Source: Candidatus Didemnitutus sp.
GTDB taxonomy: Bacteria > Verrucomicrobiota > Verrucomicrobiia > Opitutales > Opitutaceae
Direction of reading: 5' to 3'
Length of the DNA stretch: 64,000 bases
NCBI GenBank assembly: GCA_041906465.1
Contig: JAYRJE010000015.1
Coordinates: forward strand, 105,340 to 169,339
Of the stretch, positions 9,332-57,625 are shown piece after piece. The notes beneath the pieces were generated by a model that searched no databases, was not told the origin of the DNA, and saw only the letters and a list, made by a program, of their open reading frames with translations. The position numbers and the translations under genes are program-made. Positions within the stretch are counted from its first letter, which is position 1, and each line of letters opens with the position of its first letter.

Positions 9332-9346
9332 TGCAAAGCTTTGGCC

Positions 9347-21300: not shown

Positions 21301-22045
21301 CGCGACGTTCACGAAGGCCGACCTCACCGCGGCCGACGTGGGCACCTACGATGTCGTCGTGACCAACGCCTACGGCACCGCGACCTCGCGCAGCGCCGTC
21401 ATCGCGCTCAATCAGCAGGCGCAGACGATCACGTTCGCCGCGTTGCCCGATGTGCCGTTCAGCGCCACGCCGCTCACTCTCAGCGCGACTGCGACCTCCG
21501 GCCTCACGGTCACATTCAGTGTCGTTTCCGGTTCCGCCAGCCTCACGGGCAACCAGCTGACGCTGCTCGGCACCGGCGCGATCACGGTTCGCGCCTCGCA
21601 ATCCGGCAACGGTTCCTACCTCGCCGCGACGCCGGTCGAGCGCACGTTCACCGTCACCGCGAACTTCGCTTCGTGGCTCGTGGACAACTTCGCGCCTTCC
21701 GAGATCGCGAACGCTGCGCTGACCGGTCCGAACGCCGACTTCGACCAGGACGGCGTGCCGAATCTCGTCGAATACGCGCTCGGCCTGAACCCGAAGGCCG
21801 CGAGCACGACCGGCACGCCGGTGTTCGCGCTGGAGAGCGGCAACTGGACGCTGACCTACACGCGTCCCGCGAGCCGCGCCGACGTGAGCTACGCCGTGCA
21901 GTTCTCCACCAACCTCACGACCTGGTCGACGACCGGCGTCACGCACACGCTGGTTTCCACGGTCAACGGCGTGGAGACATGGCGAGCCACTTACCCCGCT
22001 GCTTCGGCCCCGAGCTGCTTCCTGCGACTGATGGTGACGAAATAA
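9347..22045 (+). CDS. Giant secreted/surface protein (about 4232 aa): delta-60-type beta-propeller repeat blocks alternating with Ig-like domains, QTITF domain, shared 127-aa C-terminal domain
   Basis: Signal peptide ending PSARA; dozens of 'V..IAxQxDGKIxxGGxF...RxNxDGxLDTTF' repeats in about 8 blocks; about 8 I-set-like Ig domains (YQWYRxG); single uninterrupted ORF. Confidence 0.88.
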   Translation: MVARFLHAARGVLAFGLVRALLAVVVCAVAALPSARAADLDASFDVDARAFGIGLAVATQPDGKVLVGGSFSRADRAEVTNLARFNSDGTRDTTFNVGSSLDGAVRSIAVQSDGKIVIGGTFTGYGATSRNRIARLNADGSLDTSFNPGTGFDQEVISLAIQSDGKIVAAGAFTTFNGTVRNRVARLTTAGALDTTFLNTGAGANGIVWDVALQADGKPVIVGGFTSYNGTARARVARLTTAGALDTTFNPGTGANADVVAVAIDSAGRAVIGGLFSTYNGTARACLARLTTAGALDTTFASTAVFSSSYDAILDVRLDSAERVVLAGDFYPSYQYNYNTPTQGLARLNADGNALDETFLVRDTVWKISRAGLSFRRIMSIALGADDGVFVAGGMYDPTSGQAGVLRVSNTGARDTTFNARAGIWFPANINAVRPGAGGKYYVAGAFDWIAGARRVDLARFLPNAQIDSTFFAYDSDFTDNQIREVVELPDGKVWVFGPFTKIGSQTRTGAALFNANGSLSYTPPFLTVTGGNANGNVTRALATSSGDVVLAGTFTQVNATARPGIARITAAGVLDTAFAPGAGPVGGAIEDAALDASGRVVIGGSFTSFSGTAEGYIVRLSTAGAVDAAFAANTNVSAAVNSVQVQANGQILLGGSFANSGGYVFNGTTLLNADGTTDTTFNPYPGANSSVFRARRVSDGSVVVTGAFTQMQNQPRPLIARFTTNGPIDSLFATDTIEGGYPVDVLERPDGKLLVRGTFTIVNGQSRNGLARFHSAPVRRGGLESAMNGANLANNVVNAVVPLGDGRFVVAGDFTTFSAQSRSRVAAINVYGEVDSTFNVGSGFNGSVLGGALLSSGKILLWGGFSSYNNAAAPGLVRLNTDGTLDPTFVSPVFNAAVNAVQVLADGRLLVGGAFTFAGATQAGGIVRLHANGAVDTTFNAGTGANGAVFAVARASDGSVFAGGAFTTFADAAAPGVVKLTADGARASGFSIGTGNANNANPVRALAVANDGKLIVAGSFDAWADASVGRIVRLNLDGSRDTTFLNGFGADGAVYALAALSDGRLYVGGAFTTFGGGERRGLVRLSANGVIDPVFDVGAGFSGGEVRALGLASDGRVAAGGTFSSYQGVARSRVAILFGSDETSYSLPGDQIFTANIDPGAPFSLSYGAAISGLRYQWYRDGARIPGATGATYAVASAGLADAGLYTLTFSNGSGEYTTQGWRVTVKLAPVIVGAPITQSVGYGASATFNVGVAGPGPFTYQWYRNGTLIAGATDSSYTVTNVSGADFGATFHVRITNAYGFSDSTPVALTFDTNAVPGALVLPFSSPQAWSGSPTAVVRAAGGQYYVGGSSVFVRLNADGTVDSSFAPALGSFTVTRLALQADGKIIAAGSLPINGTTYQVARFLTSGAVDPTFTPVAVTHSTSSWSTEINALVLQADGKILLGGYFDTVAGTTRRFLARLNTSGALDSTLAPTSDSTGPNSTVLSIVLQGTNVIIGGAFTTYAGATVNYLARFVASNGARDTTFAGGTRADALVRGVAAQADGDLIIHGNFTTYNGTARARLARLNADGSLDTAFNPGSGAAKRSIWDSPSIAAALPSDNGTVIVVGSFDSFSGWPAVNSVRLTSTGAIDTQWATPDSGSTSFGQLFSLSDGSLFVGYTYGGFLRLLSGSYPPQAPAIARAPVAPGGERPAGARVELSALASGPGTLTFQWYRGTTALTNSTTVSGATSPVLTLRSVRASEAGSYQLRVTSSTNGFVETTPVNVAVGAERSGPGSLDLTWAADPMPRISTVLAFASDGSAIASIYDNNLSPSRSFLRKFDANGVLLPTTTFSSGAGFEGYFSELHVQSDGKIIAVGAHLPPGSSTARYLARMNADGSYDTAYTTAPDNSVNDSVLQSDGKLLIVGSFANVSGTARAGVARILTTGGVDTTFTPGAHGLTNLRFVRLATDTANLGKIYLVGYNSTVSSEEIVRLTAAGAVDGTFARVAITNNTVRDIALDSSGRLLLTGNFTTVAGQARRTIARINTNGTLDTTFGPARSAGFSATPSSIAIGTDGWIYLAASDSTSTTFDGFPTGPIVRVDATAGQLDVNFPGSGGIRYESLSEARLWWVGSKLALNGYISGPSRTEFIRVNVDGAPTGAPSLVDSSGDRTVADGSALSLFARFSGAGPFTYVWRKDGNVITGATGPQLVITAVSAADAGAYTVTATNTSGSATATMNVALFSADPLAAVGGFQLTANFNGSITNAVRFADGSVLVSGTFTTVNGTARRSLARFTAAGALDTTFNANVPLATSGEVLISNLIVEPDGRILVHGVLPLNNSTSASLIRLNTNGTLAASILNSTNLTGGIAAVARQADGGIVVMGPFTSILGTARTNFARITSAGALDTTFVPTGLDASDYRQIAVDATGRIWLLGNFTRIGTDSIGARVVRLASTGVLDTTFQAPLFNNTPSRVFFAADGRAFLLGQANFVLGEPSPVVLLDATGAVNRGFRVASTSSAIALAEDSAGRLHGLFGNQILRLTATGEIDRVMNVSSSPGVLLGAGDRLLLAGGSQLSSVGTTSVFGLVYANAADTDTFSLLGPLPANASVAQGGVLALRPGVRGATTGTVTYQWFRDGTPIGGATGPALVLPSATVADRGVYTFTATKGGVTLTAGPTQVDVIANTARPGEVDLGWKASVPLSGVSRIFSDAADNLYLTGNVVAGTASPRALVALDAAGTVRSNFTLSSRVTGFVSGLRFLSGGKLLLYGQSLQLDGLACTLLRLNADGTLDTTFTTSSDPINDLIVLGDGRLLALTSSGLMRYSAAGVRDTTFSSTSYPSGNLFPAPGGKFWIVGSHYDPVSYIVSRWLTRVNADGTIDPTYVGPALRQGENVSAVAATPDGGLYVVLQLNDSNVSGYAFGYRRIVRVRPDGTVDASFAAGTFQFGQTSFSISDLAADAAGRLVVVGMFDRYDGSARNGTVRLLPDGAIDPSFVSLAAPAIASNNALNRVLVLPSGRIVVSTSGATPIGQVADRIGLAALVSTEVAAGTAPVLTTPLTDRTLNPYDALALHAPVFAPASATFQWRKDGTAIPDATGPRYRLIGAPPDAAGEYTVQVTTPGGSVTSAPVLVNVAPSDFSGGLGSRNAFTRVEAPASFAVTQPDGRALVVSLGSTINGSVAHELFRLNADGSFAGGLPTTVTGTNSQLQISAAVVDAEGRIYIGGQFSYVNGVSRNRVARLLADGSLDPTWDPGAGPNSTVSSLALMPDGKLVIGGSFSQVGGVARQFLARLTTTGALDSTFVVGTGLNNLPIALAAQSDGRLLVGGQFTTYNGITATRLIRLDATGGLDATFAPAPNSTVRVIRVAGDGRILVGGDFGQVAGSPRTGLAWLDAQGTLLPTTMNYTSGYRGALILPDNSVIATTANTVARFRADGTADTVFNNANSYRGSFYRTLSSSSASTQLFPVLAAGNEVLIVGDFARISPQSTANTGISRHAAVWLRYSDSLAPVIGTAPIDANLPEGGSVTWTLQATSPSGTLTYAWTKVSDPTTVLATTPSLTRTNVKPGDAGQYRVVVANGEGFAEAFVNLSVRAASVPLPGSVRLGFYAPTLTSSISSVAPAAGGGWWAAINSNLVRLLANGSVDPTFTALTLSSGSITGILDTPSGGLYVWGTFTSLGGQPIPRLIRLTSTGALDETFTAALPSGATISTVAPLADGRVYVGGSFTVDLAGKTTTNFVRLIATGALDTTFDPNGGVDGAPTAIRPLSDGRVYVAGSFSSAGGAARRGVVRFLASGALDGAFNNLNVTSVAQLVVYPDGRLLIAGSFTSVDGVPRTGVARLSANGVVDPGFVLGATPNFGGAFVPIVLRPDGRIVIAGNFNESGSSRSRVLQFEADGALDASFDGTRTFTATIGGVSSTTFRSLTLLPTGHLIVTGSFTYLDDGISRAGVVSLQGTPLAPEITADTIVSATLSAGGTINLSVTATGAPTLSYQWRRNTSAISGATSATFTKADLTAADVGTYDVVVTNAYGTATSRSAVIALNQQAQTITFAALPDVPFSATPLTLSATATSGLTVTFSVVSGSASLTGNQLTLLGTGAITVRASQSGNGSYLAATPVERTFTVTANFASWLVDNFAPSEIANAALTGPNADFDQDGVPNLVEYALGLNPKAASTTGTPVFALESGNWTLTYTRPASRADVSYAVQFSTNLTTWSTTGVTHTLVSTVNGVETWRATYPAASAPSCFLRLMVTK

Positions 22046-45900: not shown

Positions 45901-48196
45901 GCCACTCGGTCACGCGGCCGTCGCTGGTCATGCCTTGGAGGCTGCTCTGCGCGGCGGATGTGGCGAACATGCCGCATCCTTCCTCGCTGCGGGCACGCCG
46001 TTGCACCTGATTGCGCACAGTTTCGGCACCGTGGTGATCAGCGAGGCTGCGCGCCGGCTGGCCGCCGCGGATATCGAAGTGGATCAGCTGACCGTGCTCG
46101 ACCCTCACGATTTCGACGAGTTTTGGGTGCCGGTGGATGGCGACGCGCGATTGCCCAATGTGAATGTGTGGGAAAACGTGCGCTACGCGGACGACTATTT
46201 CGCCACGAAGGGTGGTGGTGCGTCGGACAATCCCCACGGGCGTGCGATCAATCATGCGCGCACGGAGGATCTCACCGATTTCGACGGGTTCTACAATGCG
46301 TGGTTCAATCACTCGCATTCCAACACGCACGGTTTCTATCACGGAACGGTCAATCCCGGCAGCGTTGGTGACAAGGTTGATGGTCTCGAAGTTCGCTCCA
46401 GCTGGTATTCCGGACGCAAGTCGGACGAATCGGTGGGCTTCACCACCTCTCGTCTCGGCGGACGATTTGGCCGTGGTGACTTTCCCACGCGCGACAGTGG
46501 CGTCGTGGACTACCGCGAACCCGAGCGCCTGCCCGATTCCGATACTGGCTCGCTCGGTCAGGTGAACGATGTGGTGACTTATCCCGAGCGGCCCATTTTC
46601 AACGGCGACTTTTCGCTCTACGACGCCGGTGAAATTGTCGCGCCGTGCACCGTGCCCGGCTTTCTCGGCGCCACCGAATTGCGCGGGCCGCTCCTGGAGG
46701 AAGTCGGCGGCGGCCAAGCCATGCTTTTGTCGTCGCCGCTGGTCGCGCTGACCCAGCCCGGGGACATGATGTTGTCGCGTGTGCGCACGGTGTTGACCTA
46801 CCTGCCGGCGACGGCGCGCCAGTTCTCGTTCCGTTTGCGGCGCGGCTATACATACGCTCCGAGCGCGAGTGATGACTACCTCGAAGTCGCCGTTTTGCGC
46901 GGCGGCACGCGTGAGCAGGTGCGTGAGCCGATCCGCGCTTCGCTGGTCGGCAACAGCGCGTTCGCCACCTACTATGCCGACGTCTCGCGTTACGCGGGAC
47001 AGGCTGTTCAATTTGAGTTTACGGTCACCGCGGGCGTGTTGGTCGGCGGGGTGGCGCCTGGTATTTCCGATTCGAATCTTTATCTCGACGACCTCGGACT
47101 GGTCACCTCCGACGACGCCACGGTGACCGTGACCGCAAGCCCCGCCAACGGCGGTTCGGTGCAGGGAGGTGGCACATTCACCGCCGGCACGACCATCACG
47201 CTGACCGCCACTGCCGGCGCCGGTTTCACTTTCGTGAATTGGAACGATGGCATGACCAGTGCGGTGCGCCAAATCACCGTTCCAGTCGGAGGCGCAAACT
47301 ACACCGCCAATTTCAGCGCCAACACTTTCCTGCTGTCGGTCGACGTTTCGCCGCGCAACGCCGGCACCGTGACGATAGCGCCGGCGAAGGCCCGCTACGA
47401 CTTCGGTGAGGTCGTCACGCTCAGTGCGCAACCGGCCACGAACAACGGTTTCTACAGCTGGACGGGAGACCTTTCGGGCACGAATCCCGTGACGACCCTG
47501 ACCATGTCAGCCGACAAAGCGGTTGGGGCGACTTTTTCGACGCTCGATGTGACACCGGCGCGGCGGCAGATCGCCGCCGGCGGAGGCGAACTCACCTGGC
47601 AAATCGCCGTCTCGCCTGGCACCCAGCCCGAGGTGGCGCTGGGCGCCCCGTGGCTCCGCGACGCGGTGATTGCGTCCACGGACGGGCAGAGCGGCTGGAG
47701 ACTGACGCTCGCTGCGGATGTCAATCCGGGTTCGGCACGCACGGGCTACGTTGACGTGGTCGCTCATGGTCTGTCGCGACGGCTCTCGCTGGACCAAGCG
47801 GCCGCCGCTTCCGGTTATCAGACATGGCTCACTGCCCACTTTGCTGCCGACGAAGTTCAACAGACCGCAATTAGCGGACCGGCTGCGGATCCGGACCGCG
47901 ATGGACTCTCCAATCTGCTTGAATACGCCTTTGGACTCGATCCGCGCTCGGTGAACGGAGCCATCCCGACCACATTGGAACTCACGTCTGGCGGATGGAC
48001 TCTAACCTATGCCCGCCCGGCGGATCGCGGCGATGTCGTTTTCACAGTGGAAACGTCGGCGGATTTGAAAAATTGGACCAATGCGGGAGTTTCCCACGTG
48101 CTCGTATCGACGGCCAACGGGGTCGAAACCTGGCGGGCCACTTACCCCGTGGATGGAGCCCCAAGCTGCTTCTTCCGCATCGTGGTTACGCGTTGA
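42923..48196 (+). CDS. Large secreted/surface protein (1757 aa): duplicated N-terminal modules, alpha/beta-hydrolase-like domain, InlB-B-type and BACON-like domains, shared C-terminal domain
   Basis: GTG start and signal peptide (...LFLWLAAPALAPA); 210-aa tandem unit; THG...HLIAHSFG...VLDPHD; 'VTVTASPANGGSVQGGGTF..G...TLTATAGAGFTFVNW' repeats; shared CTD. Confidence 0.82.
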   Translation: MNRPSPSVSAHTPALSQCRWSRVLLFLWLAAPALAPAAITGLSWRNSSASSSSVLSTVEAGQTVYARVNATNMSGQTVSVTVMEKDTFANDTIQTLSVTINSSGYGTAAWTAKWTDDGVGGGDPEYILRASGASDSAQLSVTDKTGPGAPALSSPSDAATVTASSVAFSWGASSDSASGSGFRDYTLEWANNSAFSSSTRRTGLTTTSYTDTVTADGTYYWRVYAYDKLGNATVSSPASRSFTRSTPRITGLSWRNGSSSSASTLSTIEAGQTVYVRVDATGMASSTVLVTILENDPISNDTIQTLSVTINSSGYGTAAWTAKWTDDGVGGGDPEYILRASGASDSAQLSVTDKTGPSAPALSSPSDAATVTASSVAFSWGASSDSASGSGFRDYTLEWANNSAFSSSTRRTGLTTTSYTDTVTADGTYYWRVYAYDKLGNSTVSSPASRSFIRLTPRITALSWRSAATTSAPTLASVRAGQTAVIRIDSVGMAGGNVSVSVYESDPLADDFVETINVPIGADGVGFANWAARWLDDGVGGGDPEFLLRVAGVADSALLTVTPSTGAIAASLRALSETQPDPARLSIMVEETGQEKFGAGIATPVRFEDLAPGTYHVTGKYQSQTGHTEYWSWKRSYTVAAGATTAAPLIRNLPYVRAVEFAAVDAAGAERILGAGDSVNPGSTVKARLLLANPTGSAAAVRWTLALDRLRDATNDVVRTGTTTIAGAATDTTVEATVSLSDLGSYSYFVTLETDLEGFRYTDSWSWNSSFGVFSVPPPQVSIWPLLPIALRTGESSTITIKVMHQQGDQMVNSSGASVQVFDAFVGATPIALPLTDANGETSYKVTASGRTVAVDATEDLAIRVVASRPGGGVAETTKRVRLHNPKFGVTAVTHGYLPGAGTAPGWLYDLAIAVLNRAGRGKLWLMSFEESGVTTLTRLSLTGAEQRATSEKFSPQFVEGSDASADASNPAKIGEQVIIYHWGTYANNTLASPLGHAAVAGHALEAALRGGCGEHAASFLAAGTPLHLIAHSFGTVVISEAARRLAAADIEVDQLTVLDPHDFDEFWVPVDGDARLPNVNVWENVRYADDYFATKGGGASDNPHGRAINHARTEDLTDFDGFYNAWFNHSHSNTHGFYHGTVNPGSVGDKVDGLEVRSSWYSGRKSDESVGFTTSRLGGRFGRGDFPTRDSGVVDYREPERLPDSDTGSLGQVNDVVTYPERPIFNGDFSLYDAGEIVAPCTVPGFLGATELRGPLLEEVGGGQAMLLSSPLVALTQPGDMMLSRVRTVLTYLPATARQFSFRLRRGYTYAPSASDDYLEVAVLRGGTREQVREPIRASLVGNSAFATYYADVSRYAGQAVQFEFTVTAGVLVGGVAPGISDSNLYLDDLGLVTSDDATVTVTASPANGGSVQGGGTFTAGTTITLTATAGAGFTFVNWNDGMTSAVRQITVPVGGANYTANFSANTFLLSVDVSPRNAGTVTIAPAKARYDFGEVVTLSAQPATNNGFYSWTGDLSGTNPVTTLTMSADKAVGATFSTLDVTPARRQIAAGGGELTWQIAVSPGTQPEVALGAPWLRDAVIASTDGQSGWRLTLAADVNPGSARTGYVDVVAHGLSRRLSLDQAAAASGYQTWLTAHFAADEVQQTAISGPAADPDRDGLSNLLEYAFGLDPRSVNGAIPTTLELTSGGWTLTYARPADRGDVVFTVETSADLKNWTNAGVSHVLVSTANGVETWRATYPVDGAPSCFFRIVVTR
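43188..44274 (+). repeat. Near-identical intragenic direct repeat (43188-43644 vs 43818-44274; period 630 bp)
   Basis: By-eye alignment of about 457 bp found roughly 11 mismatches, mostly synonymous. Confidence 0.92.
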
Positions 48197-48199
48197 GCA

Positions 48200-50188
48200 C
48201 TATTCGACCGGCGCCGCCGGAAACTGCACGCACGGCTTCGGCGGGAGCGGGGCGGATTCGTCGAGGTAGAAGCCGGGGTGCGGCGGCTGGTTGTAGGCGA
48301 CGTTCTGCCAGGCGATGCTGAGGCGGTATTGCGGGTCGTGCATCAGCGTGACGAGGCGATGCGTCGTCGGAATCGTCGACGTGTAGATGTGCAACGCGGC
48401 GTTGTCGCGCGTGCGCCAGATGACTTCCTCGCGCCAGTCGCCCCAGAGATCGACGCTGAGTGCCGGCGTGGATTTCGTGCCGTTGTTCGAGTCGCACTCT
48501 TCGGCGACGAGCAATGAGTCGAGCGCGCTGGTCTGCCAGTTCCATTTCACGATGCGGTTGCGATCGAGCAGTTCGTGCAGCAGGTCGCCATCCCAGAGGA
48601 TCCCGAAGTTGCACGGGAAACCGCGCGGGCGGCGTTCGAGGAACTTCTCGCCGCGCATCGTGTAGAGGCCGTCCATGCCGGAGCCGGCGGCCCAGACTTC
48701 GGCGCCGGGGAAGCGCGGGTCGATGTTGAACGCGTTGCCGCGACCCGGGCCTTCGCCTTTGTCGCCGCCCTCGGTGTCGGCCTTCACGGATGGCACGAGG
48801 AGAATCGGGCGACCGGTGCGCGCGTCGCGGACGTTGATGCCTTCCCCGGCGAAGCGCTCCTGGATGCTCATGATTTCGAGGCCGGGATTTTGCGGATCGA
48901 GATCGCCGACGTGGATCGCGTCGCCGTGGCCCCAGCCGGTCGAGTAGAGCCCCTTGCCGTCGTCATCGATCACGCACGCGCCGTAGATGATTTCGTCGCG
49001 GCCGTCGCCGTCGACGTCGGCGACGGAGAGGTTGTGATTGCCCTGGCCGCGAAACTTTTCGTTGCCGGGTGTGCCGTCGTCGGAGTCGAACACCCAGCGC
49101 GGCGTGAGCTTGCCGTCGCGCCAATCCCACGCGGCGAGCACGGCGCGCGTGTAGTAGCCGCGGCACATCACGATGCTCGGGTGCGTGCCGTCGAGGTAGG
49201 CGACGCCGGCGAGGAAACGATCGGAGCGGTTGCCTGAGCTGTCGCCCCACACGGCTTTCGCTTGCTCGGGCGTGGGATTGTCGGTGTCGGGATGGCGGCG
49301 CGGCGCGTAAGGCACGGTGGCGAGCGCGGCGCCGGTGCGGCCGTCGAACACGGTGAGATATTCCGGGCCGCGCAGGATGCGGCCCTCGAGGTGTGCGACG
49401 AGACCTTGGGGCGTGCGTGTGGCGCCGGTGGCATCGGGTGTCGGCACCGTGCCGCCGGCGGGCTCGCGCCAGTCGGCGTTTGCGTCGCCGATGATTTTGC
49501 TCGTGCCATCGACGCTGCCGTCAGCGGTCTTGCAGACGAACTCGGCGCGGCCATCGCCGTCGAAATCGTAGACGAGAAACTGCGTGTAATGCGCGCCTTC
49601 GCGGACGTTTTTGCCGAGGTTGATCGTCCAGAGGAGTTTTCCGTCGAGCGTGTAGGCCTGGAAGATCGGCGCGTCAGTCGGACCGGCTTGGGAATTGTCG
49701 CGCGCGCGGCCGGTTTGGTGGAGGACGATTTCGTAGCGACCATCGCCGTCGAGGTCGCCGACGGAGGCGTCGTTCGGCGTGTAGCCGTCGATGGGCTGGA
49801 GTTTGAGCGTGTGATACGGCGCGCGCGGCGTGCCGGCGGCGAGCGTGTAGCCGCGGTCAGCAATGGCGGCAGCGAGTTCCTGTCCGTTGACGATGGTGCG
49901 CACGGTGTAGGAGACGGATTGAGCGGCGGGCGCGGCATCGTCGACGAACCACGTGGCGCCGGTGAGCGGAGCGGCGTTCAGCCTCGTGGTTGCCGAGCCG
50001 GCCGTGCGGTAAACGTTGAACGCGACGCCGTCGGGATCAGACGCGAGCACGCGCCAGGCGACGTAGTTTTTTCCGTCGGATTGCGGCACGGCGACCACGC
50101 CGCGATCGAGACGTTCCATGATCGGCGTGGCGTGGACGCCAAGAAACAAACCAGCGAGCAGGGGAAGAAAGCGAAACGGGGAGTGCAT
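48200..50188 (-). CDS. Rhamnogalacturonan lyase, polysaccharide lyase family 11 (YesW/YesX-like)
   Basis: Signal peptide then MERLDRGVVAV; Y.PNDASVGDLDGDGRYEIV, GKNVREGAHYTQFLVYDFDGDGRAE, GNRSDRFLAGVAYLDG, SIVMCRGYYTR, GQGNHNLSVADVDGDGRDEI, GHGDAIHV, NNGTKSTP, DLWGDWREEVI, MHDPQYRLSIAWQNVAYNQPPHPGFYL. Confidence 0.95.
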   Translation of the reverse strand: MHSPFRFLPLLAGLFLGVHATPIMERLDRGVVAVPQSDGKNYVAWRVLASDPDGVAFNVYRTAGSATTRLNAAPLTGATWFVDDAAPAAQSVSYTVRTIVNGQELAAAIADRGYTLAAGTPRAPYHTLKLQPIDGYTPNDASVGDLDGDGRYEIVLHQTGRARDNSQAGPTDAPIFQAYTLDGKLLWTINLGKNVREGAHYTQFLVYDFDGDGRAEFVCKTADGSVDGTSKIIGDANADWREPAGGTVPTPDATGATRTPQGLVAHLEGRILRGPEYLTVFDGRTGAALATVPYAPRRHPDTDNPTPEQAKAVWGDSSGNRSDRFLAGVAYLDGTHPSIVMCRGYYTRAVLAAWDWRDGKLTPRWVFDSDDGTPGNEKFRGQGNHNLSVADVDGDGRDEIIYGACVIDDDGKGLYSTGWGHGDAIHVGDLDPQNPGLEIMSIQERFAGEGINVRDARTGRPILLVPSVKADTEGGDKGEGPGRGNAFNIDPRFPGAEVWAAGSGMDGLYTMRGEKFLERRPRGFPCNFGILWDGDLLHELLDRNRIVKWNWQTSALDSLLVAEECDSNNGTKSTPALSVDLWGDWREEVIWRTRDNAALHIYTSTIPTTHRLVTLMHDPQYRLSIAWQNVAYNQPPHPGFYLDESAPLPPKPCVQFPAAPVE

Positions 50189-50234
50189 GGTGGGAAGGTG
50201 AGCGCGCACGGGTTGGGGCTAAACAGCAGGAGGA

Positions 50235-50299
50235 ACCACGGATTTCTCGGATGGCACGGATGAAGCGCCTGGATCCGTGTGATCGGTGCAATCCGTGGT
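50235..50299. repeat. Intergenic inverted repeat with 9-bp-periodic arms (CACGGAT type)
   Basis: ACCACGGATTTCTCGGATGGCACGGAT (50235-50261), 11-nt spacer, ATCCGTGTGATCGGTGCAATCCGTGGT (50273-50299). Confidence 0.75.
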
Positions 50300-50455
50300 G
50301 GATGGCTTGAGCGGAATTGGGGTTGATCAGAAACGCCGCGGACGCGAGCGCGGGCGGAGCGGACCGTCAACCATCGAGGCTGCGCTTGCGACGCGCGGGC
50401 GAACGCGCTGGGATGCGGCTGTGATTCCGCCCGTGCAACGGCCCGACGCACCACG

Positions 50456-50578
50456 GTGGAGCGCATTGTCCTCAATGCGCTCGAGCGATCGTCCCGCGGC
50501 GAGAATTCGAGAACGCGTTGATGCGCCGGAGGCACACAAGGGGCTTGCCCGCCTCTGGCGGGTCAACGCGTTCCACCT
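50456..50578. repeat. Second inverted pair of the GTGG-footed REP-like family, one copy with an expanded loop
   Basis: GTGGAGCGCATTGTCCTCAATGCGCTCGA (50456-50484); GAACGCGTTGA (50511-50521) ... TCAACGCGTTCCACCT (50563-50578). Confidence 0.72.
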
Positions 50579-50639
50579 GCTACCGCCGCTCGCTCGAATC
50601 GTCATCGCCGTCGCGTTGTGGGCGTTGCCGTCGACGCCG

Positions 50640-51161
50640 ATGAGCGCGGCGGAGAACCTGGCGGACGTGCTGCGCGGCTTCCGGGTCGCACCGGCTGGAT
50701 TCGTGAGCGAGAACTTGCAGCGCGTCGCGGTTCCTTCGCCGAAGTCGCTCGTGCGCGAGTCGCGGCACGGCTATGCGGCGTGGGCGGCGGATGTTTTCTC
50801 GGCGGACGAACTCGCCGACGCGCGCTTGAGCGGGCCTGACGCCGTGCGTGCCGCGGATGGTCTGACGAATTTGGAAAAATACGCGCTCGGGCTCGATCCG
50901 CACGACGTGGCGCGCGCGGCTGACTTGCCCGAGAGCGGACAGCTCGATGACCACTGGTTTCTTTGGTATCGGCGTCCGAGCGACACCGACGACGTCGAGT
51001 ATCGCATCGAAGTTTCGACGGACGACGGCGCGACGTGGAGGAGCGGTGGCGTGACGCAGGAGCCGATCCTGGCGAACGACCTCGCCCAGTCCTGGCAGGC
51101 GCACTATCACGCGGCAGCGGGGCAGACGGTGCGCTGGCGGTTGGTGCCGCGACTGCGCTGA
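50640..51161 (+). CDS. Small protein consisting almost only of a diverged copy of the shared C-terminal domain (start uncertain)
   Basis: GYAAWAADVFSADEL...SGPDA...DGLTNLEKYALGLDP...W.L.YRRP....DVEYRIEVSTD...W..GGV...WRL aligns with the giant-protein CTDs. ATG at 50640, but a signal-peptide-like stretch (IVIAVALWALPSTPMSA) lies upstream in frame; alternatives are TTG 50616 and ATG 50475. Confidence 0.75.
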   Translation: MSAAENLADVLRGFRVAPAGFVSENLQRVAVPSPKSLVRESRHGYAAWAADVFSADELADARLSGPDAVRAADGLTNLEKYALGLDPHDVARAADLPESGQLDDHWFLWYRRPSDTDDVEYRIEVSTDDGATWRSGGVTQEPILANDLAQSWQAHYHAAAGQTVRWRLVPRLR

Positions 51162-51430
51162 GCAGCGCGCCTTTTCGCGATACGGTCGGGGCGGGGCAGC
51201 CTGTTTCCAGAAAAATCTTGCCGGCAATTGGGGGGATTTCAGCATGCGGGTTCGTCCATCGACAATGGGCCCACCAAATCGGGATGTTTTGGTGTGTCGG
51301 CGCGGCGAAACGACATTGCCATGGATCTTCCCCCGCCCCCGCCCTCCCGCGCGTCCCGCCGGACCGCGCGAAACCAAGAACGCGAGCGCGCTGACTTCCA
51401 GTGCGGCCCTGGAGTGTTGCCGCGCTGCCG

Positions 51431-54400: not shown

Positions 54401-57400
54401 TATGTGGCCGTCGGACGGAACGGGCGGGTTGTCGTCTCCACCGACGGCCTCAACTGGACGGCCCATCCCCAGGCGGAATCTCTGCTTTTTTATCGCGTCG
54501 TCTTTGGCGCCGGCGTCTTTGTCGCCACGGATGGGACAAACCTGTGGAGCTCGGCCGACGGCACGCAATGGACCGCACGGAACCGGCCGATAAAAAGCAG
54601 CGGCAGCTACACTGGGTTTGTTTCCAGCCTGGAATATGCCGACGGCAATTTCGTCGCCACGTATGGCAGCGACGTCCTCCGGTCGGCTAACGGCGTAGAC
54701 TGGCAGGTGCTGTCGGGCGTGCTGCCGCCGCCGGTGAACGGTAACTATTTCACCGGCCGACTCGTGGTGGCGGACGGCAAACTTTGGGCGATCGGTTCCA
54801 CCTTCGGCGGGCTTCCCTTCTGGCTGCGCGCTCCGCGTGTGGCCAGTCCGCCCGCCATCACGGCATCGCCGGCGGATGTCGTGATCGCCAGTGGTGGCAG
54901 CGCGACGCTGACGGTGGCTGCGAGCGGCTCGGACCTGACCTATCAATGGTATCGTGGTCCGGCGGGCGATGCTTCCAATCCGATCGTTGGCGCCAGCGGA
55001 GCATCCTACGTCACGCCCGCGCTGACTCAAACCGCGCAGTATTGGGTGCGGATCACCAACGCGGACGGTGCGGCAAGCAGTCCGACGGTGACGGTGGCCA
55101 TCGGCAGTGCGCCGGTCATCACGACTCACCCGGTCGATCTGGATGTCCTGGCCGGTTCCACGCCGAACCTCGCGGTCGTCGCTACCGGCAATCCGGCTCT
55201 CAGTTACCAGTGGTATCGCGGGGAGAGTGGCGATACGTCGCGACCGGTCGCCGGTGCGACCGGCGGCAGTTACACTCCGCCCACCGACGGCGCGTATGCC
55301 GTGCGGTATTGGGTGCGCGTGAGTAACACCTTGGGCACAGCGGACAGTCGCGCCGTGATTGTGACTCCATGGTTCGCTCGGAGCACGCTCGTCAATCAGT
55401 TGATCGCCGGAGTGGTTCACGGCGCGGGTCGCTGGGTGGTGCAGGGATTCTCCGACAACGATTACTTTTCGGACGATGGGGCTGCCTGGAGCAGAACAAC
55501 CACGGCCGTCGGCGGCCAAAGCGGTGGCCCGGTCGCGTGGGGCAACGGAATCTTTGTCGCCGCCGATTCCGACACGGTCGGCGCGCTTTGGGTTTCGTCG
55601 GACGGCAGCACGTGGAGGAAGATCTTCGTGCCGGGGAGCAGTGCCGGATTCACGCAGGTCGCTTACGCCGGAGGCTACCTGTTTGCGCTGGGCGCGGAAG
55701 GCAAGTTTGCGACGTCGGTCGACGGCACCAACTGGACGCTGCGCGGCGTCGGGAGCAGCGTGTATCTGCACGACGTTGCTTACGGCAACGGTCGTTACGT
55801 GATGGCGGCGGGACTCACCACGCACACTTCGACGGATTTGAGCGCGTGGGAATCCTTCGCCGTCGCGGACGGCGATATTCGAATCTCGGCGTTGAGCTTT
55901 GGAGCCGGAAAATTTGTGGCGGTCGGCGGAGCCAATCAGGGCCGGATCATGACCTCGACCGATGGCGCGAGTTGGACGGTGCGCTACACCTCCAACTCAA
56001 ACGGCGTTCACGATGTCGCGTTCAATGGCTCGCGCTTCGCGGTGTCCGCGAGCGACTACTTGCTCGTGTCGCGCGACGGGCTGGACTGGAGAGCGCTTTC
56101 GCTGCCTGAAACCTCCGTGATCGCATCCGGAGCCGGCCGTTTTCTGGCCGTCGGCAATTTTGCGGCCTGGCAGAGCGCGGCGGATGAGCTGCTCGGTCCG
56201 GTGATCACCGCGCAACCCACCCAACAGTCCGTGGTGGCCGGCGCGGATGCCACTTTCCGCGTTACTGCCGTCGGCGGCACGCTGACCTATCGCTGGCAGA
56301 AAGACGGCGTCGACCTTTCCGGCGCCACGGGTGCGACGCTTACGCTCGCCAACGTCACCGCTGCCGACGCGGGACTCTATTCCGTCGTGGTGACGAACGA
56401 GGCCGGCGCGGTGGTCTCGGAAGTTGCGCGCCTCACCGTCGTGGCATTGCCGCACCTCGTCGCTCAGCCCCAGGCGCAGACCATCAAGGAGGGACAGCCG
56501 ATCTACTTCGAGGTCGTCGTGGCGGGAGACGCTCCGACGACGTATGTGTGGTATCGGGACAACGTTCCCATCGCTGGCGCGATCGATGCGCGGCTCCGCT
56601 TCAGTGCGGTGCAGCCGAGTGATGCCGGCTCTTACACGGTGAAGGTGACCAACGCCGCGGGCTCGGTGACGTCCGCCCCGGCGATCCTGACGGTTGCGAC
56701 GGTCCCCGTCATTACTCTGCAGCCCGCGTCGCAAAGCACCACCATTGGCGTGCCGGTGAGCTTCACCCTCACGTCCACCGGGACGGGAATGTTTCACTAC
56801 CAATGGGAGACGTCGCCCGCGGGCTCCGACACCTGGAGCTATGTGCCGCTGGAGGCCGGCTACACCGGCGTCATGAGCCAGACGCTCACGGTCGTGTCGC
56901 CGACTGCCGCGGATAGCGGGCGGCGATTCCGCTGCGTGGTCATGGACGACGTGGGCTTGGCGCGGTCCCAAGCGGCGACGCTGACGGTCAGGCTCAATCC
57001 GCAGACGATCACGTTTGCGAGTCCTGGTGACCAGTCGTTCAGCTTCACGCCGCTCAAGCTCACCGCCAGCGCGAGCTCCGGTCTGCCGGTGAGTTTCGCG
57101 ATCGATTCGGGCCCGGCCAGCGTGGACGGTAACACGCTCACGCTCACTGGCACCGGCTCGGTGACCGTGCGCGCTTCGCAGGGAGGCGACGCGTCCTACG
57201 CCGCGGCGGCAAGCGTCGTGCGCACGTTCACGGTGACGGCCAGTTTCGCTTTCTGGCAGCTGAACGCATTCTCGCCTGCTGAGCGGAGCGATCCGACGGT
57301 TAGTGGTCCCCAGGCCGATCCCGATGCGGATGGAATTTCGAATCTGATGGAATACGCACTCGGCCTGGATGCCCGAAGCGCATCGGCGATGGGCGTGCCG

Positions 57401-57625
57401 GTCGTGGCGCTCGAGTCAGGCCACTGGTCGTTCACCTACACGCGACCGGCGGATCGCTCCGACGTCGTCTACACCGTCGAGCGGTCCGACGATCTTGTGC
57501 GCTGGAGTCGTGATGGTCTCGTGCACGCGCGCGTGTCGGTTGCGGACGGGGTTGAAACCTGGCGTGCAACCTATCCGACCGCTTCCGCCCCGGTTTGCTT
57601 TTTCCGGTTGGTGGTCACGCGCTGA
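51431..57625 (+). CDS. Large secreted/surface protein (about 2064 aa): RCC1-like propeller, two blocks of SxDGxxW repeats, Ig-like domains, QTITF domain, shared C-terminal domain
   Basis: ATG 51431 and signal peptide (MRTVRFPFIAAKWVMLACVVWSVSLAA); RCC1 blades at about 51750-52545; repeated 'V.YGxGxFVAV...xSxDGxxW' at about 53070-54840 and 55370-56190; shared CTD. Confidence 0.86.
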   Translation: MRTVRFPFIAAKWVMLACVVWSVSLAATPPSTSVIASGSSITFDATTEGATSYGWSRNGEYLGISSPQFVIENASALHAGSYQVSIVHSTGVSYRMFHVRVARSNVVQAWGDNTFGQCAVPAGLHDVVDLSAGQDHTLALRSDGTVVAWGRNDHGQCAVPVGLSGVVQVAAGADHSVALKADGSVVAWGLNTSGQCAVPAGLTGVGFVAAGGAHTIALKHDGTVVAWGDNAYGQTDIPYAIRPLRTISAGLTHNVAITDVGRVVAWGDNESGQSTPSWDTYATAVHAGEKFTAYLNSGRQLWYFGKLVPAMPSGSYAVALSGRARHGLALRADGSVVAWGPNVSGEGSIPAGIGNVQQVAAGRAHSVVALSGVPPTITLQPVAQTAAEGDSVAFTVAAGGAATYQWLHEGVALTDGGRFAGTSTATLTISPVQETDAGSYTVRMGNPFGEVTSQPALLAVHPLIVRAQGTALANSDGSQVTLSVSVSGVGPFTYQWYRGQSGDTSTPVNGGVSATLTVAQTTAADPYWVRVSNGMAQADSVTIPVGKWQVIDPVFGASPLYAVAYGGGNYVVVGGSVGYSTTGREWQVGAIESGADLRTVVHDGTRFVAAGTGGQVFVSGDGALWTKLRAADVNADTDLPHAAAVGNGTVVFLGFRQVLTSTDGTAWAWRVINADGQTIVLRSIAFGAGRFVAVGATSANFGSPCIFSSLDGVNWTQATVPLTSPNGSYKLGDLQQVHYLGGRFVALGMLAYSSNSNYVLSSTDGVTWSTAVASNLTVSPEFMALGNGQLVSADLRTSADGITWSASRGNLPPGHPRGLSFGNGLFFYLSYADNDTYSSIATSSDLSNWTTRTGFGVPEYVGYGSGRFVGFARERTGYSLDGLTWTATDGLGYSVATEDVSYGNGLFVARDTTGRNVTHYTSSDGITWTARTAAALNGTQVFATIRYLNGQWVGVSAGIGILTSPDAVTWTKCFADTNYYYRDIAYGAGRYVAVGRNGRVVVSTDGLNWTAHPQAESLLFYRVVFGAGVFVATDGTNLWSSADGTQWTARNRPIKSSGSYTGFVSSLEYADGNFVATYGSDVLRSANGVDWQVLSGVLPPPVNGNYFTGRLVVADGKLWAIGSTFGGLPFWLRAPRVASPPAITASPADVVIASGGSATLTVAASGSDLTYQWYRGPAGDASNPIVGASGASYVTPALTQTAQYWVRITNADGAASSPTVTVAIGSAPVITTHPVDLDVLAGSTPNLAVVATGNPALSYQWYRGESGDTSRPVAGATGGSYTPPTDGAYAVRYWVRVSNTLGTADSRAVIVTPWFARSTLVNQLIAGVVHGAGRWVVQGFSDNDYFSDDGAAWSRTTTAVGGQSGGPVAWGNGIFVAADSDTVGALWVSSDGSTWRKIFVPGSSAGFTQVAYAGGYLFALGAEGKFATSVDGTNWTLRGVGSSVYLHDVAYGNGRYVMAAGLTTHTSTDLSAWESFAVADGDIRISALSFGAGKFVAVGGANQGRIMTSTDGASWTVRYTSNSNGVHDVAFNGSRFAVSASDYLLVSRDGLDWRALSLPETSVIASGAGRFLAVGNFAAWQSAADELLGPVITAQPTQQSVVAGADATFRVTAVGGTLTYRWQKDGVDLSGATGATLTLANVTAADAGLYSVVVTNEAGAVVSEVARLTVVALPHLVAQPQAQTIKEGQPIYFEVVVAGDAPTTYVWYRDNVPIAGAIDARLRFSAVQPSDAGSYTVKVTNAAGSVTSAPAILTVATVPVITLQPASQSTTIGVPVSFTLTSTGTGMFHYQWETSPAGSDTWSYVPLEAGYTGVMSQTLTVVSPTAADSGRRFRCVVMDDVGLARSQAATLTVRLNPQTITFASPGDQSFSFTPLKLTASASSGLPVSFAIDSGPASVDGNTLTLTGTGSVTVRASQGGDASYAAAASVVRTFTVTASFAFWQLNAFSPAERSDPTVSGPQADPDADGISNLMEYALGLDARSASAMGVPVVALESGHWSFTYTRPADRSDVVYTVERSDDLVRWSRDGLVHARVSVADGVETWRATYPTASAPVCFFRLVVTR

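What the first reader, a model, noticed from the sequence alone, without database searches (positions are those of the whole stretch)
50640..51161. Stand-alone, cargo-less and diverged version of the shared CTD
Seen: after about 45 aa the protein is just the CTD (50769-51161, 130 aa). It keeps W5, F10, SGP, DG, NL, YALGLDP, W, Y.RP, DV.Y..E.S and W..GV. It has lost the acidic loop (DAVRAADG for ADPDADG), swaps xEY for EKY, and lacks ETWRAT and the Cys. It sits co-oriented inside the cluster. Inference: a dedicated partner (chaperone, nucleator, cap, receptor or decoy) for the CTD, which argues the CTD is an interaction module of a system and not just a tag.
Basis: partly seen in the sequence, partly recalled or inferred. 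Interest (0 to 1): 0.72.

Follow-up and report, generated by a model that had tools for sequence, protein, structure and literature searches.

The report
Small secreted copy of giant-protein tail domain
This is a real, conserved small secreted protein made almost only of the tail domain that giant surface proteins of Verrucomicrobia carry, but its fixed neighbours across genomes are a secretion, rhombosortase and metalloprotease gene cluster, not the giants.

Summary
The ORF ending at 51161 carries a diverged copy (31-36% identity; profile-profile E 4e-27) of the ~125-aa C-terminal domain (CTD) that ends the four giant proteins of the window. It is not a pseudogene: 26+ short orthologues exist, dN/dS of the domain is about 0.18, and all have a signal peptide. 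The real start therefore lies upstream of 50640.

The CTD is a large uncurated Verrucomicrobiota family (3,259 clusters, no Pfam, NCBIfam or PDB relative). It is a helical lobe with an EF-hand-like loop on an Ig-like sandwich. The "lost acidic loop plus EKY" is one of two standard states of that family.

The partner-of-the-giants reading is weakly supported. In 5 of 11 genomes the gene has no giant between the rhombosortase and itself. It is the last gene of a conserved cluster (unknown ~200-aa protein, GlyGly-CTERM M10 metalloprotease, rhombosortase, this gene) beside type II secretion genes. The giants are gained and lost around it. In sister lineages the same subtype is the ordinary C-terminal domain of M10-headed giants, once in the same chromosomal slot.

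Best reading: a minimal-cargo member of the CTD family, tied to the protease/secretion module. Function is untested.

The parts
50286..51161 (+). Maximal ORF of the small CTD protein. The stop codon is at 51159-51161. Candidate starts are GTG 50421, ATG 50475, CTG 50577 and ATG 50640.
   Evidence: Orthologue starts align with GTG 50421. The coding GC3 signature begins at about 50586.
50598..50648 (+). Signal-peptide h-region (IVIAVALWAL) and c-region (PSTPMSA). The predicted cleavage is before Ala at 50649.
   Evidence: The alignment of 27 and of 8 orthologues shows the n/h/c pattern and an AxA site. GC3 is 0.90 here. This was inferred by eye; no predictor was run.
50649..50768 (+). Family-specific basic N-segment of 40 aa (AENLADVLRGFRVAPAGFVSENL...), pI 10.6.
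   Evidence: The motif LR.FR..PAG.V.EN is shared by distant stand-alone members (P0120 E 7e-8; P0123 and P0117 about 1e-3). It is absent from the fused proteins and the giants. dN/dS is about 0.45. pLDDT is 56-68.
50769..51158 (+). B-type copy of the shared CTD: a helical lobe (50772-50885) followed by an Ig-like beta-sandwich (50931-51158).
   Evidence: homology; AF2 pLDDT above 95 in this part; dN/dS 0.10-0.31.
50844..50879 (+). Degenerate EF-hand-like 12-residue loop, VRAADGLTNLEK. The giants have DPDADGISNLME here.
   Evidence: K or R at position 12 goes with loss of Asp1 and Asp3 in 125 of 131 members. E at position 12 goes with DxDxDG in 86 of 90.
50455..50485 (+). REP-like hairpin (GGTGGAGCGCATTG-TCCT-CAATGCGCTCGAG) inside a palindrome-rich insert of about 126 nt (50460-50585) in the 5' leader.
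   Evidence: There is a second copy at 440-470(-). Palindromes are listed. Depth is 3.3-fold, with several other contigs of the same organism matching in X1. The insert is absent in L001, L005, L006 and L008.
21656..22042 (+). A-type CTD of giant 1 (ORF 9341-22045, 4234 aa).
42432..42818 (+). A-type CTD of giant 2 (ORF 22458-42821, 6787 aa).
47807..48193 (+). A-type CTD of giant 3 (ORF 42923-48196, 1757 aa).
57236..57622 (+). A-type CTD of giant 4 (ORF 51401-57625, 2074 aa).
   Evidence: The AF2 model has pLDDT 96.6 and the same order of secondary-structure elements.
504..2525 (-). Secretin (GspD-like) of a type II secretion-like operon. GspE and GspF lie beyond the window start in relatives.
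   Evidence: Secretin, Secretin_N, N0 domains; T2SSE and T2SSF next to it in relatives.
2810..3454 (+). Conserved unknown protein of about 200 aa ('p207'). It overlaps the start of the M10 gene by 11 nt.
   Evidence: no family match; 61-78% identical orthologues in the same position.
3444..4898 (+). M10 (matrixin-like) metalloprotease with an Ig domain and a GlyGly-CTERM-like tail (GGGGGGGGG-APSHW-FFAALALTALA-RWRQRRQ).
   Evidence: the tail is conserved in orthologues. TIGR03501 itself did not score; the tail was assigned by its tripartite architecture and its adjacency to the rhombosortase.
4870..5514 (+). Rhombosortase.
   Evidence: TIGR03902 scores 101 bits against a cut-off of 84.
48200..50209 (-). 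Rhamnogalacturonan lyase (PL11). It is the immediate upstream neighbour of the small gene in most close relatives.

Best explanation
SHOWN.
- The gene encodes a Sec-exported protein of about 19 kDa (mature form). It consists of a signal peptide, a 40-aa basic family-specific segment, and one 'B-type' copy of a large, uncurated Verrucomicrobiota C-terminal domain.
- That domain has three short helices, an EF-hand-like loop and a helix, packed on a six-stranded Ig-like sandwich.
- It is an orthologous gene under purifying selection.
- It is the last gene of a conserved cluster: p207, then an M10 metalloprotease with a GlyGly-CTERM tail, then a rhombosortase, then this gene. The cluster lies divergent to a secretin/GspE/GspF operon.
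- The giants of the window (each with an A-type CTD carrying a canonical DxDxDG..E loop), their two-component system and the lyase are lineage-variable insertions between the rhombosortase and this gene.
- In sister lineages the B-type domain is the normal C-terminal domain of M10-headed giants. In one of them it sits in the same slot, between the rhombosortase and RNase E/G.

INFERRED.
- The B-type domain does in the small protein what the CTD does at the end of every other family member. It is a self-folding C-terminal module that routes or retains type II-secreted proteins at the cell surface.
- The small protein is thus a minimal-cargo member whose 'cargo' is the basic N-segment. It is a client of the CTD pathway, not a component of it.
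- It works with the M10 protease/rhombosortase module. It was not built for the giants.
- Lys at loop position 12 replaces the Ca2+ ion of the A-type.
For: Homology and fold
- HHalign gives 99.7%, E 3.8e-27.
- The two AF2 models have the same order of secondary-structure elements, with pLDDT 89 and 96.6.

Real gene
- There are 26 short homologues at 51-82% identity.
- All have a signal peptide.
- dN/dS of the domain is 0.10-0.31.
- The N-segment motif is shared by deep-branching stand-alone members only.
- A 174-nt contig identical to 50719-50890 is present in a wastewater RNA-seq library. It is the only full-length match in 20 kb.

Conserved backbone
- The rhombosortase lies directly upstream in L001, L005/L012 and L015/L016.
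- Only the lyase lies between in L007 and L011 (Oleiharenicola sp. Vm1, complete genome).
- The rhombosortase scores 99-101 bits on TIGR03902.

Giants are variable
- They are present upstream in the window, L002, L004, L006, L008 and L013, and absent in the five contexts above.
- L007 and L008 differ by dS 0.14 in the domain yet differ in this respect.

Same subtype used in cis
- P0122 (2098 aa), P0124 (3000 aa) and P0125 (1882 aa) start with an M10 domain 46-50% identical to 3444-4898. They end in a B-type CTD 44-54% identical to the small protein.
- L019 reads: rhombosortase, p207', M10' giant ending in CTD(B), RNase E/G(-).

Family-wide position
- About nine in ten of the best 150 hits carry the domain at the extreme C-terminus of proteins 124-4940 aa long. 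The family has 3,259 clusters.

Precedent
- Giant genes in the related phylum Omnitrophota lie next to gspD/E/F-like loci (bioRxiv 10.1101/2023.11.21.568195).
- Rhombosortase with a single adjacent GlyGly-CTERM target has been reported in Opitutus terrae (PMC3237569).
Against: - No experiment or known family tells what the CTD does. Surface routing or retention is inferred only from its C-terminal position, the diversity of cargo, and the secretion-gene neighbourhood.
- A pure sorting tag with almost no cargo has no obvious use. Yet the domain, and especially its last hairpin (GVTQEPILANDLAQSWQAHYHA), is strongly conserved. That fits a specific binding function at least as well.
- Giants sit directly upstream in 6 of 11 contexts, which is not explained by this reading alone.
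- The M10 heads of the fused giants are paralogues (46-50%) of the cluster's M10, not the same gene.
- The NJ tree used for the subtype has no support values.
- The start codon is unresolved.
Confidence: 0.5

Rival explanations
1. One reading: a trans-acting partner of the giants' CTD (receptor, cap, nucleator, chaperone or decoy). It would bind A-type CTDs during or after export and so control display of the giants.
For: - Giants with A-type CTDs lie immediately upstream and co-oriented in 6 of 11 contexts, including a lineage whose small protein is only 47% identical.
- The gene belongs to a cluster of sorting and secretion genes, the place where machinery is expected.
- The last beta-hairpin is nearly invariant.
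- The basic N-segment (pI 10.6) could bind acidic CTDs (pI 4.6-4.8).
Against: - It persists under purifying selection where no giant lies between the rhombosortase and it, and none within about 7-10 kb (to the contig end in L015/L016) (L001, L005, L007, L011, L015).
- The small family has about 10 clusters against 3,259 CTD clusters, and only 4 species representatives.
- The same subtype works as an ordinary tail of M10 giants.
- The two AF2 monomer models are complete and confident, with no sign of a missing strand.
- Whole-genome co-occurrence could not be tested.
Confidence: 0.15
2. A subunit or regulator of the neighbouring M10 protease module, unrelated to sorting. Examples are a substrate-binding or cell-surface adaptor subunit, or an inhibitor or pro-peptide-like partner acting in trans on the lipid-anchored protease.
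For: - The gene order p207, M10, rhombosortase, small gene is conserved down to 44% identity of the small protein.
- All three full-length cargo-linked B-type proteins are M10-headed, a Rosetta-stone-type link.
Against: - The fused M10 heads are paralogues carrying thousands of residues of other cargo in between.
- There is no similarity to known protease inhibitors or pro-domains.
- The N-segment is absent from the fused forms.
Confidence: 0.2
3. An orphan tail cassette. Like the orphan C-terminal modules of Rhs/CDI loci, it would serve mainly as a recombination substrate that can replace the tail of an upstream giant.
For: - It lies downstream of, and co-oriented with, giants that end in a homologous domain.
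- In L019 a giant ends in the B-type domain at the very same chromosomal slot.
Against: - It has its own signal peptide and a conserved N-segment.
- It is under purifying selection also where no giant is upstream.
- At 31-36% protein identity to A-type CTDs it is far too diverged for homologous recombination.
Confidence: 0.08
4. A decaying truncated remnant of a giant (pseudogene).
For: - A true remnant exists next door in a relative. L002 10663-11409 is a 248-aa leftover of the giant-4 orthologue, without a signal peptide. So such deletions do happen here.
- A REP-like insert sits in the leader of the window's copy.
Against: - dN/dS of the domain is about 0.18 over saturating dS.
- There are 26+ intact orthologues of the same architecture.
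- The reading frame stays open through the insert in all four lineages that carry it.
- There is an RNA contig inside the gene.
Confidence: 0.02

Closest known systems
Type IX secretion C-terminal domains (CTD) of Bacteroidota, including small proteins that are little more than signal peptide plus CTD
   Same: - An Ig-like beta-sandwich of about 80-130 aa at the extreme C-terminus.
- Carried by many unrelated, often very large, Sec-exported surface proteins.
- Cargo size ranges from tens to thousands of residues.
   Different: - No sequence match to the T9SS CTD models.
- An extra helical lobe with an EF-hand-like loop.
- The neighbouring machinery is type II-like (secretin/GspE/GspF), not T9SS.
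- Cleavage or anchoring has not been shown.
GlyGly-CTERM / rhombosortase sorting with type II secretion (Haft & Varghese 2011, PMC3237569; Vibrio VesB from my own knowledge)
   Same: - The small gene is the last gene of a cluster with a TIGR03902 rhombosortase and a single adjacent GlyGly-CTERM-like protease next to type II secretion genes. This is the 'dedicated system' layout described for Opitutus terrae.
- In related giants the B-type CTD occupies the C-terminal position that the GlyGly-CTERM tail holds in the cluster's protease.
   Different: The small protein has no Gly-rich motif, transmembrane helix or basic tail, so it is not a rhombosortase substrate of the known kind.
Dockerin / EF-hand and thrombospondin type 3 calcium loops
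   Same: The A-type CTDs of the giants carry a canonical 12-residue DxDxDGxxNxxE loop followed by a helix.
   Different: - There is only one loop, fused to an Ig-like sandwich.
- There is no Pfam Dockerin or EF-hand hit.
- The small protein has the de-metallated state (xxxxDG....K).
Orphan C-terminal modules of Rhs/CDI polymorphic toxin loci
   Same: A short gene homologous to the tail of the large upstream genes, co-oriented and downstream of them.
   Different: - It has its own signal peptide and a conserved N-segment.
- It is not a toxin and there is no immunity gene.
- It is conserved without upstream giants.
Giant genes next to type II secretion-like loci in Omnitrophota (bioRxiv 10.1101/2023.11.21.568195)
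   Same: The same superphylum (PVC), with giant surface proteins encoded beside gspD/E/F-like genes.
   Different: - Those giants have transmembrane regions and SecA-like domains.
- No shared CTD or stand-alone copy is described there.

Membership tests
Shared Verrucomicrobiota CTD family (uncurated; defined here by the four giants' tails) | Significant sequence homology over the whole ~125-aa domain | tested here: met
   HHalign gives 99.7%, E 3.8e-27 over 127 columns. Identity is 31-36%. The small-family profile retrieves 3,259 clusters.
Shared Verrucomicrobiota CTD family (uncurated; defined here by the four giants' tails) | Domain ends within a few residues of the protein's C-terminus | tested here: met
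   The small protein ends ..RWRLVPRLR*. About nine in ten of the 150 best hits do likewise.
Shared Verrucomicrobiota CTD family (uncurated; defined here by the four giants' tails) | Same predicted fold (3 helices, loop, helix, 6 strands) | tested here: met
   The AF2 models m366c1e3c719d and m4bf5eeb81c4c have the same order of elements, with pLDDT above 95 in the domain.
Shared Verrucomicrobiota CTD family (uncurated; defined here by the four giants' tails) | Acidic EF-hand-like loop DxDxDGxxNxxE (A-type state) | tested here: not met
   The small protein has VRAADGLTNLEK. This K/R state is seen in 131 of 223 members and so does not exclude membership.
T9SS C-terminal sorting domains (TIGR04183 / TIGR04131) | Match to the curated models | tested here: not met
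   There is no NCBIfam hit at E<=1 for five sequences, nor at E<=0.01 for 78 members.
GlyGly-CTERM rhombosortase substrates | C-terminal Gly-rich motif, transmembrane helix and basic cluster | tested here: not met
   All three are absent from the small protein (sequence). They are present in the neighbouring M10 protein and its orthologues.
Dockerin / EF-hand | Match to the Pfam models; paired calcium loops | tested here: not met
   There is no Pfam hit in 90 members. There is a single loop, degenerate in the small protein.
Chaperone-usher type chaperone or pilin (beta-strand complementation) | PapD-like or pilin fold with an incomplete Ig sandwich | tested here: not met
   - Fold searches return only generic Ig-like domains (best E 2.7e-4, TM 0.42).
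- There are no PapD or pilin hits.
- The monomer models are confident.
- Strand complementation itself is not testable here.
Pseudogene remnant of a giant | Relaxed selection, disrupted frame, full-length cargo in orthologues | tested here: not met
   dN/dS is 0.10-0.31. All 26 orthologues are short and intact. A true remnant (L002 10663-11409) looks different.

The most novel reading that the evidence does not exclude
The type II secretion genes, the rhombosortase and the stand-alone B-type CTD protein form the core of a Verrucomicrobiota-specific display system. In it the small protein is the trans-acting surface receptor or adaptor for CTD-tagged proteins. The gap between the rhombosortase and this gene is then the preferred landing site for new CTD-tagged giant cargo genes.
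Probability: 0.12. Interest if true: 0.8.

Novelty: new variant of a known kind. Interest (0 to 1): 0.5.

Why it matters
The shared tail domain is a large family: 3,259 clusters at 50% identity. No Pfam or NCBIfam model, solved structure or paper could be found for it. It marks the C-terminus of very diverse, often giant, secreted proteins of Verrucomicrobiota.

If it is a sorting or retention module, it would be for this phylum what the T9SS CTD is for Bacteroidota.

The stand-alone form is the simplest handle on it. It is a 19-kDa soluble protein with a confident model, present in a cultured strain with a complete genome (Oleiharenicola sp. Vm1).

The locus also shows giant genes being gained, lost, truncated and re-tailed around a fixed secretion/rhombosortase backbone.

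The two clean states of the EF-hand-like loop (DxDxDG..E against ....DG..K) offer a natural experiment on replacing a bound calcium ion by a lysine.

Tried and rejected
- Pfam and NCBIfam on the small protein, the four CTDs, and 90 and 78 family members gave no family for the domain. There were only sub-threshold hits: Mo-co_dimer (an Ig-like E-set domain), and Amuc_1099 on the loop motif with best E 3e-4.
- The PDB sequence search with the family profile found nothing.
- Two PDB fold searches gave only generic Ig-like sandwiches: IL-18 binding protein, MHC C1-set domains and CBM21, all with TM <= 0.42.
- Rfam on 50100-51500 gave only a far sub-threshold hit.
- The promoter/terminator scan gave nothing above the shuffles.
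- The metagenome-contig scan with the small family produced no confirmed locus.
- The genome-contig scan gave only 4 loci, and is limited by its two narrow peptide patterns.
- Five literature searches found no description of the domain, its motifs, or giants of Opitutaceae.
- I tested whether the N-segment derives from the M10 head, p207 or the linkers of the fused giants. There was no similarity.
- I tested charge complementarity between the B-type and A-type domains. Both are acidic.
- I considered the loss of the conserved Cys as meaningful and rejected it. The Cys is a feature of this window's giants only and is absent from most of the family.
- A heterodimer prediction was not possible with the single-chain tool.
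Full report
1. THE OBSERVATION.

The window is high-GC DNA (0.63-0.73). One activated-sludge metagenome holds it completely.

Four + strand giant ORFs end in the same ~125-aa domain: 9341-22045 (4234 aa), 22458-42821 (6787 aa), 42923-48196 (1757 aa) and 51401-57625 (2074 aa). The four copies are 53-57% identical to each other.

The ORF 50286-51161 carries a diverged copy in its last 130 aa:
- It is 31-36% identical to the four tails, with 25 invariant columns.
- A profile-profile comparison gives probability 99.7%, E 3.8e-27.

2. GENE MODEL.

The proposed start at 50640 is very probably wrong.
- The 26 homologues found among 5.8 billion proteins are all short (141-257 aa; 51-82% identical; Opitutae, Candidatus Didemnitutus and Opitutus MAGs).
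- All begin with an Arg-rich n-region, a hydrophobic h-region and an AxA site.
- In the window that h-region (IVIAVALWAL, 50598-50627) lies upstream of Met50640, which falls in the c-region (PSTPMSA|AEN).
- Third-position GC is 0.90 in 50586-50648 and 0.80-0.88 downstream, but only 0.67-0.69 upstream of 50586.

The starts of the orthologues align with GTG 50421. Between it and the h-region, however, the window and three relatives (L002, L004, L007) carry an in-frame, stop-free insert of 90-129 nt made of palindromes. Its first hairpin (50455-50485) recurs at 440-470(-) and on several other contigs of the same organism, so it is a REP-like element.

Which start is used remains open: GTG 50421 reading through the insert, ATG 50475, or CTG 50577. 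The protein is in any case built as an exported protein.

The mature form starts at about 50649. It has 170 aa, 18.8 kDa and pI 5.0.

3. IT IS A FUNCTIONAL GENE.

Nei-Gojobori dN/dS was computed among eight orthologues:
- 0.10-0.31 (typically 0.15-0.2) for the domain, at dS 0.5-1.4;
- about 0.45 for the 40-aa N-segment;
- about 0.5-1.4 for the leader.

The N-segment motif (LR.FR..PAG.V.EN) is recognisable in deep-branching stand-alone members: P0120 at E 7e-8, and P0123 and P0117 at about 1e-3. It is seen in no other protein tested. The stand-alone architecture is therefore old, not a set of repeated accidents.

A wastewater RNA-seq library contains a 174-nt contig identical to 50719-50890. 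This is the only full-length match in 20 kb around the gene. The evidence is weak, because DNA carry-over cannot be excluded.

A real truncated remnant can be seen for comparison. In L002 the orthologue of giant 4 is reduced to a 248-aa ORF without a signal peptide. It keeps an A-type CTD 77.5% identical to that of giant 4.

4. WHAT THE DOMAIN IS.

A full HMMER search with the small-family profile against 1.84 billion cluster representatives found 3,259 proteins at E<=1e-3 and 673 at E<=1e-10. In about nine of ten of the best 150, the match ends at the extreme C-terminus of proteins 124-4940 aa long.

Named members come from Opitutaceae, Rariglobus, Verrucomicrobiaceae and other Verrucomicrobiota. 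Their cargo includes Ig, RCC1/WD40-like, PATR, RHS, Calx-beta and choice-of-anchor D domains.

No Pfam or NCBIfam model covers the domain. No PDB sequence matches it.

AlphaFold2 models of the small protein (pLDDT 89, above 95 in the domain) and of the giant-4 CTD (pLDDT 96.6, pTM 0.88) show the same order of elements. There are three short helices, a 12-residue loop and a helix, then six strands. Fold searches return only generic Ig-like sandwiches with TM <= 0.42.

The loop of the giants, D-P-D-A-D-G-I-S-N-L-M-E, fits the EF-hand consensus DxDxDGxxxxxE. That assignment rests on established knowledge.

Among 223 members with a recognisable loop there are two clean states:
- Glu at position 12 goes with all three Asp in 86 of 90.
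- Lys or Arg at position 12 goes with loss of Asp1 and Asp3 in 125 of 131.

The 223 loops were drawn with one search biased to each type, so the near-equal split is not an unbiased estimate.

The small protein's 'lost acidic loop' and 'EKY' are thus one coordinated switch, common among ordinary cargo-linked CTDs. They are not a mark of a special partner. The Cys is peculiar to this window's giants.

5. WHERE THE GENE LIVES.

I recovered 11 independent contexts of stand-alone genes.

Five have no giant between the rhombosortase and the small gene. None shows a giant within about 7-10 kb, to the contig end in L015/L016:
- L001 (Ca. Didemnitutus);
- L005/L012 (Opitutus sp.);
- L015/L016, whose small protein is 44% identical to the window's;
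- L007;
- L011 (Oleiharenicola sp. Vm1, complete genome).

In these the order is: secretin (with GspE and GspF where the locus reaches them; L001, L005, L007) on the - strand, then p207, M10-Ig metalloprotease, rhombosortase and the small gene on the + strand. In L007 and L011 only a PL11 rhamnogalacturonan lyase lies between the rhombosortase and the small gene.

The rhombosortases score 99-101 bits on TIGR03902, against a cut-off of 84. The M10 proteins all end in GGGGGGGG-APS(H/D)W, a hydrophobic helix and a basic cluster. This is the tripartite GlyGly-CTERM architecture, in the 'dedicated, adjacent' layout reported for Opitutus terrae (PMC3237569).

The window has the same backbone: secretin 504-2525(-), p207 to 3454, M10 3444-4898, rhombosortase 4870-5514. 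About 43 kb is inserted after the rhombosortase: a hybrid histidine kinase, a LuxR-type regulator, three giants and the lyase. A fourth giant follows the small gene.

Giants lie directly upstream of the small gene in six contexts: the window, L002/L010, L004/L009, L006, L008 and L013/L014.

The two states are interleaved. L007 has no giants and L008 has three. They differ by dS 0.14 in the domain. Giant 4 is at another place in L008 and is reduced to a stump in L002.

The small gene is therefore part of a stable secretion/sorting backbone, and the giants come and go around it.

6. THE SAME SUBTYPE AS AN ORDINARY TAIL.

In a neighbour-joining tree of the last 135 aa (no support values), all stand-alone proteins form one clade ('B-type') together with five cargo-linked proteins. 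This clade is apart from the window's giants.
- Two of the five, P0118 and P0119, are fragments.
- The three full-length ones are P0122 (2098 aa), P0124 (3000 aa) and P0125 (1882 aa). They begin with an M10 domain 46-50% identical to the cluster's protease. They end in a B-type CTD 44-54% identical to the small protein.
- P0122 is preceded by a p207 homologue that overlaps it by 11 nt.

L019 reads: rhombosortase (80% identical to the window's), p207', M10' giant ending in CTD(B), RNase E/G(-). The B-type domain there sits exactly where the stand-alone gene sits in L005 and L013.

The B-type domain can therefore act in cis as a normal giant-protein tail, and its only known cargo is M10-headed. 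Whether the fusions are derived or ancestral is not settled. The shared N-segment of deep stand-alone members suggests that they are derived.

7. MECHANISM.

Shown:
- a Sec signal and an independently folding domain;
- purifying selection;
- the conserved cluster with the rhombosortase, its protease target and type II secretion-like genes;
- interchangeability of position with a giant's tail.

Inferred: the CTD is a C-terminal routing or retention module for proteins exported through the neighbouring type II-like system. The grounds are its invariable C-terminal position on unrelated cargo, its occupying the place of GlyGly-CTERM, PEP-CTERM or autotransporter tails, and the precedent of giants next to gspD/E/F-like loci in Omnitrophota (bioRxiv 10.1101/2023.11.21.568195).

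On that view the small protein is a minimal-cargo client. Its short basic N-segment is the payload, and it is functionally tied to the M10 module.

I give this reading 0.5. The rivals are:
- a protease-module subunit or regulator unrelated to sorting (0.2);
- an orphan tail cassette (0.08);
- a pseudogene (0.02).

8. COMPARISON WITH WHAT IS KNOWN, AND NOVELTY.

In logic, the closest system is the T9SS CTD of Bacteroidota, which is also found on near-cargo-less proteins. The curated models do not match, the fold has an extra EF-hand-like lobe, and the local machinery is type II-like.

The gene is not a GlyGly-CTERM substrate, a dockerin, a chaperone-usher protein or an Rhs/CDI orphan. In each case a defining feature was tested and not met.

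I rate it a new variant of a known kind: a C-terminal domain shared by secreted giants, here in a stand-alone form. Interest is moderate, at 0.5.
- The uncurated 3,259-cluster domain family is worth following up.
- The same holds for its two-state calcium loop.
- The fixed secretion/rhombosortase backbone around which giants are gained, lost and re-tailed also deserves follow-up.

Noticed in passing
window 504-5514: This is a complete 'dedicated' rhombosortase system beside a type II secretion-like operon. It comprises a secretin (-), an unknown ~200-aa protein overlapping the next gene by 11 nt, an M10 metalloprotease with an Ig domain and a poly-Gly/TM/basic tail, and a rhombosortase (TIGR03902, 101 bits). 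The order is conserved in at least six relatives.
   Followed up: partly
window 50235-50585 and 440-470: The 5' region of the small gene holds REP-like palindromes. The hairpin 50455-50485 has a second copy just after the secretin gene (440-470, - strand). It also matches several other contigs of the same organism (3.3-fold depth in run X1). The 90-129-nt insert is in frame and free of stops in four lineages and absent in four others.
   Followed up: partly
L002 10663-11409 (also L010 8128-8514): In a close relative the orthologue of giant 4 (window 51401-57625) is reduced to a 248-aa ORF. It keeps the last Ig-like domain and the CTD (77.5% identical) but has no signal peptide. This is a natural example of a truncated giant.
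   Followed up: yes
CTD loop, e.g. window 57317-57352 (giant 4) and 50844-50879 (small protein): Family-wide covariation in the EF-hand-like loop. DxDxDG....E is found in 86 of 90 members with Glu at position 12. ....DG....K/R is found in 125 of 131 members with Lys or Arg there. This suggests that a lysine replaces the bound calcium ion.
   Followed up: partly
window 5687-48200: The ~43-kb block between the rhombosortase and the lyase holds a hybrid histidine kinase, a LuxR-type response regulator and three giants. It has higher GC (0.68-0.73) than the flanks (0.63-0.67). It is missing in the closest relative L007 and in L011. No boundaries or mobility genes were looked for.
   Followed up: no
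L008 14681-20603: The orthologue of giant 4 (92% identical over the first 700 aa) lies downstream of the alpha/beta hydrolase gene, not next to the small gene. Individual giants therefore move within the neighbourhood.
   Followed up: no
L004 4533-7665: In one relative, two KaiB genes and a PAS histidine kinase with a receiver domain lie between the giant and the lyase. The window has a different two-component pair upstream of its giants.
   Followed up: no
giant 2 CTD, window 42504-42596: There is a sub-threshold similarity of the loop-helix motif (ADPDADGLGNLMEYALG) to NF042425, the Amuc_1099 family of the Akkermansia pilus-like system. The best E among family members is 3e-4, far below the cut-off. 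That system is also encoded next to a secretin.
   Followed up: no
window 50670-50886: Run X18 is small (20 million letters), of unknown library type and labelled only 'organism A'. It holds a 217-nt contig at depth about 20 that matches only this part of the small gene, with 5 differences.
   Followed up: no
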